Below, one piece after another: positions 53,325 to 64,000 of a DNA stretch of 64,000 bases. The notes below the pieces were generated by a model. That model was not told the DNA's origin. It worked only from the letters and a program-made list of their open reading frames with translations, and made no database searches. Source of the stretch: Blasia pusilla. Taxonomy: Eukaryota. How positions within the stretch are numbered: position 1 is the first letter of the stretch; each line of letters opens with the position of its first letter. Made by a program: the position numbers and the translations under genes. The DNA is taken from contig CM114271.1 of the NCBI GenBank assembly GCA_050084515.1, forward strand, positions 18,042,001 through 18,106,000, written 5' to 3'.

Positions 53325-55004
53325 TTTTTTAATATTTATAATCACCCATTATAATATTAAATGGAATATTAATTGATTAATATGTATTCGATTCAAATCC
53401 CTATTCATTTCCTTTATTCGATTTCTAACCAAGGCCAAGGCAACAAAATTCAAGGATGTTACCTATTTTATCTTATTATCCCACTCTCTTGTCGTATTAT
53501 CCATATGTGGTTGCCAATTATTATGTAGATATGAGTTCACCAACATGATATTTATATATATATACCAATAGTGGTAATTTTTATTGTAAAATGTTAGGGC
53601 ATATAATAGTGTTTGGAAATTTCTTTCTTCTTATTTTAATGTTTTAAATAGTTTTGATGAAAGAATTTGGAATAACTAATGAAAAAAATCTAGATATCAT
53701 AAAAACAATTCCTTGGGTTGGAGTCAAAAAGATATATAACTCCAAGTGTTAGTAGATGTATAGTAAATTGAGGTTCACCTTTAGGTATCATAACACTTTA
53801 CTTAATATTCTTTTCCTTGTAACTATTGAAGAACTTAAAGTTTCCTTCTTGAAAGAGTGGTACACTTTAGCCGTCATATGTGTCTTGCTAAGATCATTAT
53901 ACCTCTTTTTGGATATGGGTATAATTCTATGTAATCTTTTTATCATTCAGCTTGGAGTTATTGGGCTAGGTAACTTAGATTAGAGAAGAAGCGTGTAAAT
54001 CCCCTCTAGGTTTGGAAGAATTTACCACCATTTCTTAGGCAATGGGTTTGAGTGAGGGAGCGAGAATTCTTTTGTTTTATTTCATAACAAGTTGTGAGTA
54101 TCTCTTATAATGGGAATGGGTGTCAGATCGGGGTCCATTTTCAAAATCCTTGTTCCATGAAAGGAAGATAAGAATTCGTAGATGGAGGACGAGAAGGATA
54201 CTCTAGAGTATTGCCAAAGAGAAGGGAGGGACTCACGAGAAGGCAATATGGACATCCACGTCCAAAATGGCCATCCATAAATTTTCTTTATTACCCTTCT
54301 TTTAAACCATGTTCATTATTTCTTAGAAAGGAAATTGATCGTGAAGATATTTTATAGGAGGAACCATGTCACAAAATTGGGATTTTATGGACTCCCATCC
54401 TTGGCATTGTGTCACCACACATGCTATACAATTAGCAAACACTAGTTTTCTTCAAATTTTAAATATCAATAATATTGCCTGTATATATGTCAGAAACGTT
54501 TTCATTAGTTGAAAACCCACGAAGAGACTTTGCGATGGCCTCTCATTCTGCTGCGCTCTTTTTCTTACACCATCTCGTATCAAACACCCCTTTGTCATGT
54601 CTATGGGAACAATAGTAGTTGTCTCATGGAGTTATTTGGTCAAACATAACACTTGACACGTTGGAAAAAACGTGATTGCTTACATATGAACTTTTGGGTT
54701 CACAAAGGTTAGTGTATTTGCTATCAAGATCACTCGAAGCCTAGTTACGATCCAATACCACAAACCCTGTTCTGGCCACATTGTTTGACTCCTAAGCTCT
54801 GATTGGGATAGAAAAGGAAAAAAAAATTATCTCAACCGTCAGGGCAAACTTGTGAAATACTCATTTGAAATGCCAAAAAATAGCTTTTTTGGCACAAACT
54901 CGTCCTCCAGGAGACAAACATTACACGATAGAAATAAACTAATGCTACAAAGTTGGGAAGCAATGTGATAAGTAGCTGAGATTTCGATGAAACCTTTCCC
55001 AAAC

Positions 55005-58000
55005 CTAGCCGAGTTTCACATCTCTGAGATATTGTAGTAGAGCTTTTGTTCCTCGTTCAAGAATAGCCCGCCTAATACTGCACACATTAGCATATCGATC
55101 ATCATATTTTTTTCCAAGTCCCACTTGGAGAAAGTCTCCTTCACATGGAGTGGAGGAAGATTTCACACACTTCCATTGTCACCAAACTTGTCATTTCAGT
55201 TTCAAGAACCACCACAATCTGATTAAGGAACAGCAACAAACTGGAATCCAACAACCAAAATATGTATACCTAAACGCCTAATACTGCACACATTAGCATA
55301 TCGATCATCAGATTTTTTTTCAAGTCCCACTTGAGAAAGTCTCCTTCACATGGAGTGGAGGAAGATTTCACACACTTCCATTGTCACCAAACTTGTCATT
55401 TCAGTTTCAAGAACCACCACAATCTGATTAAGGAACAGCAACAAACTGGAATCCAGCAACCAAAATATGTATACCTTCGCAAGGGATTTCCTTCAAGCTT
55501 CAGACTCCGCAGTGTTGGTTCCAACAAGCCCTTCACGGCACGGAAACACAATGTCCAAATTAATCAAACGCAAAGTTGCAGCTGTAGTGGTTTGTGACAG
55601 TTTTATTAGGCCTTGCATACATTACTTCTGTCGTTCCACCACTTTTGTCTCAGTGAAGTTTTCCCCTAACTCCATAGTTTTTTCTTTGATACTGGTAGAC
55701 TCTTGAGCTCTTTCGTAGATAGAGTTCTTCCTATCTCCCCCTCTATGCATGAATGCCTTTTCCATCTTGTGCCACTAGCGAGTGAATGTGAACTATGCCA
55801 ATTTTTAAACCTGACATACATATCTATCAGGTTTGCTCCGGCCTATTCACATTCTTCTAAAACCTGACATTCACATTCTTCTCTTCCATGCTGTGAGTCA
55901 ATGTGTGATTTGTGGCAGAATTCATTACTCACCAACTTCGGCGTTAGAATAGAAATGTTGTTATTGGCCAAATCGAGTTCTTCCAACCGGGTGAGTTGAG
56001 CTAGTGCCTGTCCCACCAAATCAGATTCAAGGCTACCAGTCAGCAATGTGAATAATCTGATGGAAGAACTAACATACGCCTCAACTTCATCACCAATAGC
56101 AGATTAAACGACCTCACATACACATCACAAATCTTCCCTTCATCTGGTGAAATAGATCACATATGAGCCAAGGCATGGTAATAAAACGTCTCCCTTTTAA
56201 AGTTTGAGCATGCAGCCTTGCAAATAGAGAAATGAGGATCATCCGTGACTGGAATCAAACTGCCTTGGATAGTAAGTCAGAATACGAAAATGGGAAAAAT
56301 CATGTACCTCCGGCACAGTAGTTAAACCATTTTCGCTGAGGTCCAAAATTCGTAGACTGACCATTTCAGGTATGTCGGATGGGAGCTCCCTGAGCTGTAT
56401 TCGACTGCACAAAATTTTCATTGTCATGGTCCAGAGTTGCCACAGATAGCTTGCTGGAAATCCATTAGTAATTCTTTCCATCCTAAGGTGACCCAATGGT
56501 GTCACGGTTTTTCCCAACACCTTTTAATGCATGAGTTTCTTTTGGTTATTACATAGCCACATTTTTTTGCCTTCTTCAAATCCCTTTTTTGTGCTTTTCT
56601 CGCTCATCTTCAGGTATCCTTTTCTGATGTGTTCCTTAGCCTTCTTACCAATCATAGATTGTGCCTCAAATTGTTTCTAATCTCCAACAACTTCTGCAAT
56701 GCCCCTAAATCTCTGGCTTGAAGGAAAAAGTGTAGAAAAAAACAAACCTTAAACGAAGCTCTTCAAGTTGTGACATTGATGAAAGAGCAGGTGCAACTGG
56801 TAGTTGGCCCAGAATCCCACTCAAATCCAGCATTTTAAGCTTCTCCAGGCGGAGAAATGCTCCACTTGGGATATGCTGAAATAAGTTCCAAGGGCCAGTT
56901 TTCAAAGAGCGTGGTCTCTCAAGCAGTTATATTCAACACAGAGCGTCGACACAACTTTTAATGAACAAAAAGTGACCTCAAAAGAAATGCTTATGTTCAA
57001 CTGTAAGCTTCAAATGTCCTGCAAAACTCTTGAGTACATAAGAATCAAAGCAGTGTCTGCTAAAAATGCTCCAACTCAGGCACACATTTCCTTACCTGTC
57101 GTAAGGGATTCCTAGCCAGTACTAGCTGGCGGAGACGGGGTAAGGATGCCAACGTTGCTCCTGGCCATGTCTCGAACTTGTTGTCTTGCAACAATAGAAC
57201 CTGCCCCTCAAGTACATGCATACAGCAATTCACTCTCACTCACTCCTCTATCAACAGTTGGAGGCAAAGGATGAACGGATATATGTTCAAAAGGTTTCCT
57301 AGTGAGTTTGTACCCCATGACTTACATCTCCTGCAACATAGCGTTTTTAGAGCAAAGTTCTTCGACTCCCAATGTCCAAGGCAGATGTTCTTTCTTGAAA
57401 CAAGACAGCTTCAAACAGTGCAAGTAGACTCACAGAAAGATGGGACTAGTTTGACTTTACAGTAAACAAGAGGTATATATACCTGGCTACTTCTAGCATG
57501 CAATACAAAAACTTCCATCTATGCGAATCAAAGCATGAGGCATCTATCTCATGGTCAAGTTAGTGACAAGAAACAATCCTAATTCATACTCATATTTGCG
57601 TGAAGTTGTGGTGAGGAATGGTAAGCACAACAAAATAAGCATCCTGCAACTCGTGTAATTGAAAACAAAACCAATAAGCTTCCCACCTCTAAAGATGTGC
57701 AGATGGATAGTTCACTGGGGAGATCTTCAATCTGGTTTCTTGAGAGATCAAGAGTTGTCAGAGAAGCAGACTCCCAGACTGCTGGGGGAACCACTCGCAG
57801 GCCTTTTCCAGAAAGAGAGAGGACCTAAGGAAAGATAGTGACTGGATTAATTCATAACGTTTACCCTTGAACTAGATCCTAGGAGCTTTTCTCTTGCAGA
57901 AACTATTTGAAAGAGAGAAGGTGGACACAGGGTACTGAAATGAGAACAATGTCCTGGACTAGTCAAATACAAGACTTGTCAATGTATTCTTTTTAGTCTC

Positions 58001-61000
58001 TATTATTGAAGCGGTTAATGCAAATGAGCATGGCTAGAACACACACTTAGGATCATTAACATTTGTTACATTCTGTACTAAATATTTGAGATTTTAGCTA
58101 GTTCTGAGAGCAGTTCACCTCTCACTCCTCAAGACCATAAGTGAACTACCAAGTACTTTCCAAGTTGTTCTACTCTCCAAGTACTACTACTCTCCTCTTT
58201 CAAGTAAAGTTCAGTTCTTTATAACTTCATTTGCATCAAAAATCAAGTCAAAATGAGTTGTCTTTCTAGGATGTTACAGTTGTCTACCTTTGTGGAGGCT
58301 GCCTGTCTTGCAGCATAGGCCACTTGGTCTGGCACATCTGCAACAAAAATATTACCTGAAGATGCCACACTTCCCTTTGCTTCTGCAAAACAACAAATTT
58401 AAACAGCACATATTCATCAGTTTGGTAGTGCTTTACGCAAGTAAGGATGCATCCCACATCTGAAAGTTTTTCAGATGCATTCTAAGTAGAATGAAAGATA
58501 AAACAAGAACCTTTTACATCTTGTCTGTTACTCTCATCTGATCTGTGTCACCATTAGACAGAATGTGGAGAACAGCAAGCAAGAGAGAAATAAGTAACTT
58601 AGATATACCATTCTCTTCATCCTGCAGTCTACTACGGAGAAACTTAAGCAACGCTGGAGTAGGTCCTGAGACAAGGGTACTGAAACCCGAACGCCAAGGC
58701 ACGTTGTCAGCTCTTGACCTGAGGATGGTAGAAAACAATCCTTCTATGCACTACAAATTACAGTCCTAAAAACCAACTTAAAACAAGAATCATTTCAAGG
58801 AAATCGGGAACTTCAAAACTCCACCAGTAGTGACAGAAACATGTTGAGATCAGTAAGGAAAGCTGTACAAACCTCCTCAGTGAACGCAGAGGATTTCCCA
58901 TGAGTACTAGTTTCCTCAGAGACGACATATTTCCTGCAGTAAGGCAAAGTTGCCAGCATGTAACTCATAGTAATTACACAACCTTCAAGCATCCACTTCT
59001 AATATTCTGATATGTGCTTCAACAGAAAACTTCTATCCTAGCTGAGAAAAGCCATATCTGTGAACCCGTCTCTAAGAGGTTGATGGTGTGTTGATAGTAG
59101 AGTAAGACTAAAGATTGTCTTAACATGGAATGACTGAGTCCCAAAATGATTGAAGAGGATCCAGGGAAAGATAAGGGAGCACAATCAACAAACTACTTAA
59201 GTTGATTTGCCTCATCACAATCTCAATGATCTCCCTTCTCATTCCCTGGCTGAAGGTGAAAGTGTGACCGATGCGCCGTAGGGAGCATCGGTCACACTTT
59301 CACAAAAATAGTTAATATCTAGTCTAGACATGCCTCCAAATACAGGTCCCCAAATTATTGGGATTAATCTTGAACAGGGTCAGGATCACAATTGAACCTT
59401 AGAGCATGTATGTATCCCTGTTTCTGCATCTACCAATTCAATTCGACAATGCATTGTTCTCAGGTCCAATACTTGTAGAAGTGCTGAATTTGTTTTGTAG
59501 CTGAGAGCTGCTGTGTCTACAGTACTGGCCCAACTGTAGAGTAAAGAGGGAGGAAGAGACTCACCTCATTAAATATTGCCTGTCCTAGTCTTGTGATCAC
59601 AGCCTCGTGCGGAGGGAGGAAGAAGCAAAAGAAGTATCACATGAGCAGAAGAAGACTCTAATATGGTGAGAGCGCTTACTATACAGAGTATGTGCAGAAT
59701 TCCAAGCCTCAGACAAGAGGCAATTTTCAACCCAATTACATGATTAAGATCCCCAGAACTCCTTAGGATGCTGGAGTCCAGCAGCTTTGGGCAGTGAATC
59801 TAGCTACCGATTAAGCAGCGCCTGCCGTAGCCTTTCGACAATAGACCCCTTCCCCAATTGGACCATACTAGAGGCTGGGATAGTTGCAGAGGGAGGAAGA
59901 AAGGAAGAGAGTACTACATGAGAGGAGGGAGACTCTCTCATATAGTATGACCGCTAACCATACAGAGTGTTGAGCTTCCAGGTATCAACCAAGAAACACC
60001 TTCCTACACTACCCACCCTACCCGGTAGGAAGTGGTAAGAGAGACTCTTTCCATTTGAGTAGTGCTCATCATATCCTTGCAACCATAGTGACAAGGTGGT
60101 AACTGGAGGTTTCTGCTCCATTATCACACAAAGGTAAGGATTTTGAGTGATTCCCATCTAGCACTTCTTGTGGTTCAAGGGGGCCATCCCCATCCTGTCC
60201 TTGAACTTGAGACAAGTTCCCAAACAAGGAACCCCAACAAAGATTTCATCAGTTTTGCTGGTTCAGGATACGAAATCAAAAGATCGAGGCTTTCAATTTT
60301 GGTTCTTTCTCAGTGATGCATTATTGTGAGCGCTCTCCCACTGCTGTGATTGCAGTATCCACACAGAGTCCTCTTCTTATTACCACAGTATAGATCCTCT
60401 AAGGAACTTTGCCAGGCTGAAAATCTCTTCAACCGTTCCATCCAAAATTTGCTTCCTTCACTGACCTTGCTTGGGTCAAGTGGTCCTCACCAACACTGTA
60501 GGGTAAAGATGGGGTTCCATTGCCTCCTGTTGCCTTACCTGATTAGGATCCCAATCAGGTACATGTAGCTTACCAGGTGAATCTAGGAAACTGAACTAGA
60601 AAAACAGATGTGGTAATACCAGATGAGCAATTTCAGCGTAAGTCATTGCTATTTGTGACTGTCCTCATTAAGTGGCGCATGCCGTAGCCTTGTGCCACAG
60701 ACCCTTTGAAGAGAGATAGTGCGACTATAAAATTTCTTTAATAGCTGAGAGCTAAAGAAGGTGTGTCACATCTGAGTACAGAAGAGAGCTACAAGGTGAT
60801 ACCTTGTTTGTATGCACTGAACCTATGGTACTTGATGCTAGCTCTGAGATTGGACTTGAGGATAAGTCTACAAATTTCTCATCACTGGGAATGTGATCAT
60901 CACATGGGTAACTATCAAGCAAGCAACACCACGTCAGCACAATACCAGATATTTCTTGAGAGGAATACTAAAATCTCAAGCCGGTAAGGTAGTCCATTAC

Positions 61001-63895
61001 TTTCAGAAATTCTTTGGCTTCCACACTCTAAGAAGTTTAACCAGAAGGACGAATCCTAATTCTTCTCTGATGGTGCATCTTACCAAGTTCAGCAGGCAGT
61101 CCCGACAAGTTGTTGTTGGATACATCCATTACAGAGAGCTGAAGCTTGCACATTTCCTTCGGAATGTCTTTGAGCTGACCATCCTCAAGGACCAAATCAT
61201 TATTACAGAGTGACTCAAAGAAGCAAATAGACAAGTGGATCCAACCAACAGCTTAGTGAAGGCCCCCTGTTAACAGAGGGATTCATTTCATTCGTCTCTG
61301 TAACTAAACCCAATTTTTACGCTTTTCTGAATACCTGATTTCTGCGCTACTGTTTGCCTATTTCTGGGCATTGAAATTTTGACAGGGGCAAGCCGTCTTA
61401 CAAGCAAATGCTAACTTCCCACTTTCCATCACATTTGCTTCTGAAAAAAAAATTGGATCCTTACTGGATCCTTTTTTTTTCAGAAGCACAAGTTTCATCG
61501 TAAACATGGACTGCACAAAAGATGAAGATATCCTCCACTAAATTCAAAAGCAAATGAACTCCTACCGTATATTATCTGAACAAAGATAAATCACTGCTTC
61601 TCTATGAGGATCCTTGCCTGATTAGCATGAAGATCGAGTGTGCTCAAAGCAACAAGGCCTCCCAATTGAGATGGAATGGTCGTAATAATATTATCTCTGT
61701 GGACAGACAAAGAGGTTTCTAAATAAATATTTTTGTTCAAATTGTGATGTCTCTATCTTGTCCATTTGCATATTTGAAGTTGAATGACCAGTCACAATAG
61801 TAAAATCCTTACCAAACTCTCAGGTCACAAACTCACCAGAGAATCAATGGGAGCAAGTGAGGGAATGAATGAATGAATTGATTTCTTCTCCACAGAGACG
61901 CCGAGTAGGAGCAACCCTTAATTAGCATTGGTCAGTTTGTTTCTAGTTTTTTATGGTAGAAGTTCTGGAGACTACCAACTAGTTGTCTCTCGCATCCACT
62001 TAAATCCATACCCAACTTTGAGGGAATTATGTCAACACACATGAGAATGATTGCCACTGCAAAGTGTGATATTGTTCAAAACAGTCACTATCAATCCATG
62101 ATACTACATGCAATTCTATCGGTATCATCAGACGTGATGGGAGTAAGATCCACCTATGTAGTCAAAGAGAACAAACCCCAAGAATAATTCAATAAGTCCA
62201 GTGCACCCCGCCAAAGATGATGGTATCGCATTTATGCCTGCAGTCCATGCCAAAAGATCAAGACTACTGCACAACCTTAAGGAGAGCAGGCCATGATTGA
62301 GGAACACTATTACGGAAACTTCTTCTTGCGAGGTGAAAGACCAACGGTTTCAAAACGTAAGCTTCAGATAGAAAGACGAGGAACACACTTGAGATTCAAA
62401 GAACTGAAGGCAAAATACATTGCCTGAGCCTCAAAATATCCAAGTTAGTCCTTCACAGAGATGCTGGTTGAATTGATTCTTCACCTTAATTTCTCGAAAG
62501 GATTACGACAGTTAGAATAGACATAGCTTATCCCTTGTCATGCGGTACTAAGTGCAATACAAACATGGCAGGATAGTGGAGGGGATCCAAGATAATGCTC
62601 ACGGTTCTGATGAAGATCAAGACGTATCAACTTCGTAAGTCGTCCCAAATCAGAGGGAATCTCACTCAAGATATTCTTTGCTGCAAAACCACACAAATCT
62701 TGCACTTGTAATAAAGTCCATCATCACATAACTATCCCACCTCAACTTTCTGAAGTTCTTCATTACTTCCCACACCATCAATTCCGAAGAACTAGACACT
62801 CTACAACTTTCTGTCTTCCCAATAAATACAAAAACAAAAAAAAAACATGGAGCAAATGGAGAAGACATACATGCATTTAGCTCAGTGAGATTGACAAATC
62901 CGCCAAGCATATTTTCAGGAATTTCAGCTAGCTTGTTACCCTGAAAGCGCCCAAAACAACTGTCAAGCCCAATCAATTCAAAAATATCAAGCACCTCATG
63001 GTGAATTTCTAAGCTGGCCAGATGCAGCTCCAACAAACAGGAAGAGGGCAAGAAATTTAATCCCAGAGAAAGGTTCATAACAAATTTCCTAAAAGAGGTG
63101 ATGAAACACTGGAGATAGTTCTTCTCAAGAACTATCTCCAGTGTCTGGAGATCCAAGCACAATTGTAACTGGTGCCTACTTCATATATCTCCCCAACAGA
63201 GGTCTGGGAAAGCCATGATCAAAAGGAGCACAAAATCCATACGAGCACATTGGGAAAGGATGTGTTCAACACAAAATTTACATGAAATAGACATTACATC
63301 AGATATCTGACCTCCAAATCTAGTACAGTCAGTCGTATACATTGACTCAACTCCTGTGGTAACTCTGTGAGCAAGTTATTTGGAACCTGCAGATATTGAC
63401 CGAACCCAAATTTGTGTAAATGGTAATACAGCCACATGAAATTTGAAGTAGGTGATTTGTAAGCTATTGCTCTCTTTTCAGACAAGTGCCACATGCCCAT
63501 AAAATTTGAAGCCTTATCCTGGCACTAAGATACATGATTGAATGGGAATGTGATGCCTTAAGCTCTGTTAGGTTCTTGCAGTTGCCAATAATCCGAGGCA
63601 AAGATGTCAAGGAGTTGCTGGCACAGTGAAGCCTGCACAAAGCCCCCAATGCTTCCATAAGATCCCAAAGCAAAGAATTGATATTGTACCTGCTGATAAA
63701 CTCTTGAAACTCCTCTAGGCTCAATTTGTCAACCTGTTAAAATTAAGTCGTGGATAACAAACTTGGAAACAATTAATAAGTAGAGCAGACCAATAAGAAG
63801 GGGCAAACCTTGTCAGAGAAGTCACAGCCCCAATTTCGTATGGTAGTTGAGCAATACTATTGTGAGAGATATCCAGAGCTTTCAGCACGCTCAGC
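55005..63895 (-). CDS. Leucine-rich-repeat protein, LRRC40/At3g15410-like (5' exons lie beyond the window)
   Basis: Phase-consistent exons: 63809-63895, 63557-63632, 63312-63386, 62871-62940, 62603-62680, 62177-62237, 61618-61696, 61084-61174, 58873-58933, 58609-58679, 58288-58382, 57687-57824, 57096-57200, 56748-56875, 56308-56404, 55933-56007, 55475-55530 and 55005-55077 (TAG). Repeated LxxLxLxxN motifs plus the diagnostic [34 protein letters not shown] and [25 protein letters not shown] segments. Confidence 0.93.
55069..55476. repeat. Tandem duplication (2 x ~202 bp) covering the whole last intron of the LRR gene and both splice sites
   Basis: cgcctaatactgcacac...tatgtatacct occurs at 55069-55271 and 55275-55476, separated by aaa, with only a handful of differences. 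Confidence 0.95.
59211..59303 (-). mobile_element. Short internal LINE RT fragment with a foldback hairpin, inside an LRR-gene intron
   Basis: 59211-59286 closely matches 30504-30582 of the LINE. It ends in a 19-bp perfect inverted repeat (59256-59274 / 59285-59303). Confidence 0.85.
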
Positions 63896-64000
63896 CTGGT
63901 TAAGTCCATACAACCAATCAAGCATCACCACATTTTATGTAAACCTCCAAAAAAATCTGCAAGTCTACCCCTTTTTTCAAGCAATGTTTGTCCGGCCTTG

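What the first reader, a model, noticed from the sequence alone, without database searches (positions are those of the whole stretch)
55069..55476. Whole-intron tandem duplication creates a new intron and a 14-nt frame-shifting micro-exon in the LRR gene
Seen: the last intron and both splice sites are duplicated (introns 55284-55474 and 55078-55269, each GTATAC...TGCAG on minus), leaving the micro-exon TATTAGGCGTTTAG at 55270-55283. Skipping it gives the conserved end [24 protein letters not shown]. Including it shifts the frame to [25 protein letters not shown], which also stops in the last exon and so should escape junction-dependent NMD. The copies differ at about four sites, which argues for a real, recent event. 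Inference: this is intron or exon gain by tandem duplication caught in progress, with competing identical splice sites controlling the C-terminal LRR cap.
Basis: partly seen in the sequence, partly recalled or inferred. Interest (0 to 1): 0.8.

Follow-up and report, generated by a model that had tools for sequence, protein, structure and literature searches.

The report
Duplicated intron spliced out as one
A 205-base tandem duplication has doubled the last intron of a plant LRR gene, but the cell removes both copies together as one intron, so the protein is unchanged and the proposed tiny new exon is not seen in use.

Summary
Window 55069-55476 is a two-copy tandem repeat (period 205, 98% matches). 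It covers the whole last intron plus 2 upstream and 9 downstream exonic bases, with a TTT filler at the joint. The copies differ at 3 substitutions and 1 indel. It is not an assembly artefact: a short-read DNA contig from run X1 bridges the joint, and a contig from run X2 reaches into the filler.

The isoform interpretation is not supported. In two raw RNA-seq runs, 49 and 108 reads join 55475 directly to 55077, skipping all 397 bases. A 2732-nt transcript contig from a third run does the same. Neither micro-exon junction reached the listing threshold of 3 reads, and no reads carried extra letters at the joint. Inclusion of about 5% or more would very probably have been listed. The skipped form gives the end conserved in 15 of 15 chosen PIRL6/LRRC40 orthologues.

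Net effect: the intron grew from about 191 to 397 nt and the mRNA did not change. This is a known kind of event, the multiplication of an existing intron by tandem duplication, made invisible by splicing. Interest is low.

The parts
55069..55476 (-). Tandem duplication: two copies (202 and 203 nt) of AG + the whole intron + the first 9 bases of the last exon
   Evidence: TRF period 205, 2.0 copies, 98%; direct repeats; alignment with 3 substitutions and 1 indel
55475..55529 (-). Penultimate coding exon, encoding ...LEGNPLR plus the first 2 bases of a split codon
   Evidence: Bounded by RNA joints 55529>55932 and 55077>55475; translation
55078..55474 (-). The intron actually removed (397 nt, GT..AG): donor from the upstream copy, acceptor from the downstream copy
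   Evidence: Joint 'skips 397, CT..AC' with 47+2 reads in X19, 108 reads in X20, and one X2 contig at depth 60.3
55284..55474 (-). Upstream intron copy (191 nt). Its acceptor at 55284 is not seen in use
   Evidence: Sequence; no joint 55475>55283 listed
55270..55283 (-). The 14-base would-be micro-exon: 9 duplicated exon bases + TTT filler + duplicated AG. It behaves as intron sequence
   Evidence: Sequence; no junction on either side listed and no 'letters between'
55272..55274 (-). TTT filler at the duplication joint, with no counterpart in either flank
   Evidence: Alignment of the copies and their flanks
55078..55269 (-). Downstream intron copy (192 nt). Its donor at 55269 is not seen in use
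   Evidence: Sequence; no joint 55270>55077 listed
55005..55077 (-). Coding part of the last exon ([24 protein letters not shown], stop ending at 55005)
   Evidence: ORF; matches orthologue ends
54690..55004 (-). 3' UTR. The lower end is approximate
   Evidence: RNA depth of 56-137 falls away below about 54710, and 5 molecules begin at 54696 in X20

Best explanation
A heritable tandem duplication of about 205 bp copied the entire last intron of a PIRL6/LRRC40-type LRR gene, together with 2 exonic bases upstream and 9 downstream. Three filler T's sit at the joint. The pre-mRNA is spliced from the donor of the upstream copy (55474) to the acceptor of the downstream copy (55078). Both copies and the 14 bases between them leave as one 397-nt intron, and the mRNA and protein are the same as before the duplication.

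Shown: the duplication, its presence in independent reads, and use of the outer splice sites.

Inferred: the inner acceptor and inner donor lie only 14 nt apart, too close for the splicing machinery to occupy both, so the 14-mer is not defined as an exon. The event is close to neutral. The joint with filler and no microhomology suggests end-joining repair.
For: Duplication.

Independent DNA support: X1 contig record 3 (234 nt) lies on 55082-55317 and bridges the joint with 188 and 34 letters. X1 differs from the window elsewhere (55714, 56070, 56094 and several one-base gaps), so it is not simply the same sequence. X2 record 8 (154 nt) matches 55273-55426 with 0 differences. It includes 3 of the 4 sites that tell the copies apart and 2 of the 3 filler T's.

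Splicing: joint 55077>55475 has 49 reads from 31 start places in X19 and 108 reads from 36 start places in X20. These counts are similar to the two neighbouring introns (59 and 98; 37 and 64). The X2 transcript contig of 2732 nt carries the same three joints. Overhangs at 55475 (13 and 18 reads, agreement 1 and 0.96) and at 55079 (6 reads) read the skipped form. Depth across the 397 nt is 1.2% and 1.4% of the neighbouring exon depth.

Conservation: 15 of 15 orthologue tails score 35-62 against the skipped end and 8-13 against the frame-shifted end.

Short exons are inefficiently spliced because the machinery cannot assemble at both sites at once (PMC8831610, passages read).
Against: Joints are listed only from 3 reads, so up to 2 inclusion reads per run could be hidden, and only inclusion of about 4.9% or more is excluded at 95%. 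One loose-end row was not shown, and the agreement of 0.96 in X20 leaves room for one or two deviant reads.

Only two RNA samples of one study plus one contig set were examined, and their tissues are unknown.

It is not proven that the X19 and X20 individuals carry the duplication. X20 has 1.5-2.5x intronic depth over both copies and over the joint bin, while X19 has none over the joint. X2 shows both the joint-specific contig and the skipped mRNA, but the joint evidence there rests on 2 bases.

Genuine 14-nt plant microexons exist (AT2G30695; PMC8831610), so size alone does not forbid inclusion.
Confidence: 0.85

Rival explanations
1. One reading: the duplication created a second intron and a 14-nt frame-shifting micro-exon, which is alternatively included and gives a second C-terminal isoform.
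For: Both inner sites have intron sides identical to the sites that are used. An inclusion transcript would stop in the last exon, 11 nt before the normal stop, so it should not be removed by junction-dependent NMD. 14-nt microexons exist in plants (PMC8831610). Inclusion below about 5% is not excluded.
Against: Neither micro-exon junction is listed, against 49 and 108 skipping reads and a skipping contig. No reads carry 14 extra letters at the joint, and the overhang reads show the skipped form. The frame-shifted tail has 1-3 identities to 15 orthologue tails, against 6-12 for the skipped tail. Since NMD is not expected, the absence reflects splice-site choice and not decay (inference).
Confidence: 0.07
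2. Assembly artefact: two haplotypes or reads of one intron were laid in tandem, and the genome has one copy.
For: The copies are 98% identical, as alleles might be. No long reads could be examined.
Against: The joint sequence exists in short-read data that differ from the window at other sites: X1 record 3 bridges it with 188 and 34 letters. X2 record 8 ends inside the filler with 0 mismatches. A false tandem join would leave no such reads.
Confidence: 0.03
3. The duplication is a polymorphism that is absent from the RNA-seq individuals, so how carriers splice it is in fact untested.
For: X19 and X20 differ from the window at 54786 in all reads (66 of 66 and 71 of 71) and at 55717, so they are another genotype. 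X19 has zero depth over the joint. A single-copy allele has no unique words, so short reads cannot exclude it.
Against: X20 intronic reads lie on both copies and on the joint bin at 1.5-2.5x, with none fitting two places. X2 holds both the copy-specific contig ending in the filler and the skipped transcript.
Confidence: 0.07

Closest known systems
Multiplication of a pre-existing intron by internal tandem duplication (Arabidopsis TOUCH3, Knowles & McLysaght 2006; Gao & Lynch 2009), as summarised in the Introduction of PMC4974935 (read). I did not read the original papers.
   Same: A tandem intragenic duplication contains an entire existing intron with both of its splice sites.
   Different: In those cases substantial exon sequence on both sides is duplicated too, so the intron number rises and the protein gains a repeat. 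Here only 2+9 exonic bases came along, the 14-mer is not used as an exon, and the intron number stays the same while the intron doubles in length.
[quoted passage not shown] 2011 (PMC3265369; abstract and Discussion read)
   Same: Splicing runs from a donor in the upstream copy to an acceptor in the downstream copy. This removes the duplicated material exactly and leaves the peptide unchanged, so the duplication can spread as nearly neutral.
   Different: That model duplicates exonic sequence and creates an intron where there was none. Here the duplicated material is itself an intron, and no intron is created.
Potato RdRp intron gain by a duplication crossing an intron-exon boundary (Ma, Lan & Niu 2016, PMC4974935; abstract and Introduction read)
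   Same: A recent plant tandem duplication includes intron sequence, and its splicing signals are inherited from the parent intron.
   Different: In potato a new intron is detected that uses a cryptic exonic donor. Here the RNA shows no additional intron.
Plant microexons of 15 nt or less (Yu et al. 2022, PMC8831610; passages read)
   Same: [quoted passage not shown]
   Different: Those microexons are conserved, supported by junction reads, and flanked by reinforced intronic signals. This 14-mer has no listed junction reads and is a by-product of a duplication.

Membership tests
Tandem (head-to-tail) segmental duplication | Two adjacent direct copies with high identity, well beyond chance | tested here: met
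   TRF score 788, 98%; blastn second copy E 1e-97 with no other copy in the window
Tandem (head-to-tail) segmental duplication | The joint between the copies exists in independent sequencing reads | tested here: met
   X1 contig record 3 bridges 55270-55283 with 188 and 34 letters; X2 record 8 reaches into the filler
Intron gain by tandem duplication (Rogers model) | An additional intron is spliced where the ancestor had none | tested here: not met
   Only one joint (55077>55475) is seen across the region. The intron position is shared with the Marchantia polymorpha model P0001, which reads through at the same codon.
Intron gain by tandem duplication (Rogers model) | Upstream-copy donor pairs with downstream-copy acceptor and the coding sequence is unchanged | tested here: met
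   Joint 55077>55475 in X19, X20 and X2; conserved C-terminus retained
Alternatively spliced micro-exon | [quoted passage not shown] | tested here: not met
   No joint 55475>55283 or 55270>55077 and no letters between sides, at a listing threshold of 3 reads, against 49 and 108 skipping reads. The bound on inclusion is about 4.9%.
PIRL6 / LRRC40-type LRR protein | Leucine-rich repeats recognised by Pfam | tested here: met
   Exon 57687-57824 scores LRR_4 37.5 bits (cutoff 27) and LRR_1 20.9 bits (cutoff 20.6). Two other exons score only below cutoff.
PIRL6 / LRRC40-type LRR protein | Collinear full-length similarity to named PIRL6/LRRC40 proteins, including the GNPLR...GT..LL.YL motif in the middle and at the C-terminus | tested here: met
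   tblastn of P0001 gives collinear hits for residues 75-560 on window 63903 to 55465. P0001 residues 250-575 retrieve proteins that their sources name PIRL6 and LRRC40. Tails compared. The 5' end of the gene lies outside the window.

The most novel reading that the evidence does not exclude
The 14-base segment is included at a low level (under about 5%), or only in particular tissues or stresses. That would give an NMD-resistant PIRL6 isoform with a scrambled C-terminal cap. The locus would then be a natural experiment, possibly still polymorphic, on how a liverwort-type spliceosome chooses between duplicated splice sites with identical intron sides.
Probability: 0.1. Interest if true: 0.45.

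Novelty: new member of a known kind. Interest (0 to 1): 0.2.

Why it matters
It is a clean, read-supported example of how a gene tolerates an internal duplication. Because the copy carried complete splice signals and almost no exon, splicing erases it and only the intron length changes. That illustrates one simple route to intron growth, and it shows why a duplicated pair of splice sites does not by itself make a new exon. It also warns annotators that a gene predictor could place a false 14-nt frame-shifting exon here. The biological consequence for the LRR protein appears to be nil.

Tried and rejected
The genome search 'own' returned that no genome is held for this window. I therefore could not search the rest of the genome for other copies of the unit; only the window was searched.

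The look-up of sequencing runs listed no indexed holder on record as RNA. The raw RNA runs X19 and X20 were laid instead.

Of the 22 runs listed I laid 4 (X19, X20, X1, X2). The raw WGS and Hi-C runs X15-X18, the RNA run X21 and the contig sets X3-X9 were not examined.

The first homologue search, with a single 46-aa exon, found one close relative (P0001). Its model proved unusable for the C-terminus, because it reads through the intron and is fused to a P5C reductase. A second search with P0001 residues 250-575 supplied proper orthologues.

Earlier notes of this scan held nothing, by place or by words.

One search failed on a frame slip of mine and was corrected.

I considered the X1 contig depth (16.2 against 6-10 in the flanks) as evidence of copy number and rejected it, because the tool states that this depth is not a copy number.

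I considered a two-step splicing route: the downstream copy is removed first, then the TTTAG at the end of the 14-mer serves as acceptor. It cannot be told apart from direct outer-site pairing with these data.

No orthologous genomic DNA from a sister species was reachable, so the duplication could not be dated by comparison. Supplementary files of the papers were not opened.

Full report
**What is in the sequence**

The minus strand reads as the finding says. The penultimate exon ends at 55475. An intron beginning GTATAC and ending TGCAG occupies 55474-55284. Fourteen bases follow at 55283-55270. A second, nearly identical intron occupies 55269-55078, and then the last exon begins.

Tandem Repeats Finder reports 55069-55476 with period 205, 2.0 copies, 98% matches and score 788. 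Among the 5 arrays it finds in the whole window, this is the only one with a period above 45. blastn of one unit against the window finds the two copies (E 1e-97 for the second) and otherwise only chance matches of 20 nt or less.

An exact alignment shows copies of 202 and 203 nt. Each consists of the exonic AG, the whole intron and the first 9 bases of the last exon. Three T's at 55274-55272 separate them and match neither flank.

The copies differ at 3 substitutions (55456/55251, 55320/55114, 55311/55105) and 1 one-base indel (55128).

The splice sites are identical only on their intron sides. The donor exon side is AAG| upstream and TAG| downstream.

**Is it real DNA?**

No genome is held for this window, so I turned to public runs and laid four of the 22 listed on 54650-56450.

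- **X1 (DNA contigs).** X1 differs from the window at 55714, 56070 and 56094 and at several one-base gaps, so it is another genotype or haplotype. Its record 3 (234 nt) lies on 55082-55317. It therefore crosses the 14-base joint with 188 letters on one side and 34 on the other.
- **X2 (a 2019 run from another study).** Record 8 (154 nt) matches 55273-55426 with no difference. It covers three of the four sites that distinguish the copies and ends two bases into the TTT filler.

A false tandem join made by an assembler would leave no such reads, so the artefact explanation is very unlikely. Short reads cannot say whether a single-copy allele also exists, because that allele has no unique words.

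**What the RNA does**

X19 and X20 are raw, stranded RNA-seq runs. Nearly all first mates lie on the + strand, which fits a minus-strand gene in a library of the usual kind.

| Joint | X19 reads | X20 reads | X2 contig (2732 nt, depth 60.3) |
|---|---|---|---|
| 55077>55475 (skips 397, GT..AG on the minus strand) | 47+2, from 31 starts | 108, from 36 starts | present |
| 55529>55932 (neighbouring intron) | 59 | 98 | present |
| 56006>56307 (neighbouring intron) | 37 | 64 | present |

Junction use across the duplication is therefore as high as at the neighbouring introns.

- No joint 55475>55283 or 55270>55077 is listed. No read carries extra letters between the two sides of the joint.
- The short overhangs also read the skipped form: 13 and 18 reads at 55475 continue into the last-exon sequence and not into the 14-mer, and 6 reads at 55079 continue into the penultimate exon.
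- Depth over the 397 bases is 1.2% (X19) and 1.4% (X20) of the adjacent exon depth. That level fits ordinary unspliced precursor.

**Limits of the RNA evidence**

- Joints are listed only from three reads. A binomial bound shows that inclusion of 4.9% or more would have been listed in at least one run with 95% probability. Lower levels are not excluded.
- One loose-end row was not shown.
- The tissues are unknown.
- It is not proven that the X19 and X20 individuals carry the duplication. X20 has 1.5-2.5x intronic depth on both copies and on the joint bin, and X19 has none at the joint. X2 shows both the filler-reaching contig and the skipped transcript in one run.

**Which end is the conserved one**

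One exon (57687-57824) is 80% identical to a Marchantia polymorpha protein, P0001. tblastn of P0001 gives collinear hits for its residues 75-560 along window 63903 to 55465. The gene's 5' end therefore lies beyond the window.

P0001 residues 250-575 retrieve 1777 proteins. The best of them are named plant intracellular Ras-group-related LRR protein 6 (PIRL6) by their sources, and more distant ones LRRC40. Pfam confirms LRR on the exon: LRR_4 scores 37.5 bits against a cutoff of 27.

From the 120 proteins listed I picked 15 by hand to span mosses, a conifer, a fern, angiosperms, green algae and animals. All 15 tails score higher against the skipped end (35-62, with 6-12 identities) than against the frame-shifted end (8-13, with 1-3 identities).

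The P0001 model itself reads straight on after GNPLR into unrelated sequence and is fused to a P5C-reductase domain. That points to an unrecognised intron at the same codon in Marchantia. The intron would therefore be ancestral and not gained. This is an inference, since no Marchantia genomic DNA was available.

**Mechanism**

Shown: the upstream donor pairs with the downstream acceptor, and the whole duplicated block leaves as one intron.

Inferred: the inner acceptor (55284) and inner donor (55269) are 14 nt apart. Such short exons are spliced inefficiently because the machinery cannot assemble at both sites at once (PMC8831610, passages read). The inner donor also has a T at position -3 where the outer one has an A. 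That this weakens it is my own knowledge of donor consensus, not a tool result.

An inclusion transcript would stop at 55016 in the last exon, 11 nt before the normal stop. Nonsense-mediated decay is therefore not expected to hide it, and its absence reflects splice-site choice.

The joint has a three-base filler and no microhomology. That suggests end-joining repair, but it is only an inference.

With 3 substitutions in about 202 aligned bases, and differences between X1 and the window inside the copy, the event is not brand new. I cannot calibrate its age.

**Comparison with what is known**

The logic is that of Rogers' tandem-duplication model, demonstrated by Hellsten et al. (PMC3265369, Discussion read): splicing across the two copies removes the duplication exactly and leaves the peptide unchanged. 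In that model, however, exonic sequence is duplicated and a new intron is born.

The Introduction of PMC4974935 separates that from the multiplication of a pre-existing intron by tandem duplication (Arabidopsis TOUCH3; Gao & Lynch 2009), where whole introns are duplicated with flanking exon. The present case belongs to the second kind, with so little exon attached that the intron number does not change.

It fails the defining test for intron gain, because there is no additional intron. It also fails the test for an alternatively spliced micro-exon, because there are no junction reads.

**Verdict**

The duplication is real. The isoform and intron-gain-in-progress reading is not supported. This is a near-neutral doubling of an existing intron, a new instance of a known kind of event, and of low interest.

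Noticed in passing
window 54786: All RNA reads of X19 (62+4 of 66) and X20 (71 of 71) read C where the window has T in the 3' UTR, while the X1 and X2 contigs agree with the window. This is probably a polymorphism between individuals. 55717 A>T is likewise seen in 3 of 3 reads in each RNA run.
   Followed up: no
P0001 (Marchantia polymorpha model), residues about 556-982: The public model reads through the orthologous last intron after GNPLR and is fused to a pyrroline-5-carboxylate reductase domain, so it is probably a mis-annotated merger of two genes. tblastn found no P5C-reductase part anywhere in this window, so that neighbour is not within the window here.
   Followed up: partly
window 59258-59301 (minus strand, inside the roughly 2.1-kb intron 58936-61082): A near-perfect 17-nt inverted repeat separated by about 10 bases. 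The long intron around it is several times larger than its neighbours and may hold a small mobile element.
   Followed up: no
window 63903-64000: The LRR gene runs off the window. P0001 residues 1-74 have no match, and the first matching exon is at 63903-63805.
   Followed up: no
window 56357: C>A in 8 of 82 reads in X20 from only 2 start places. These are likely copies of one or two molecules and not a variant.
   Followed up: no
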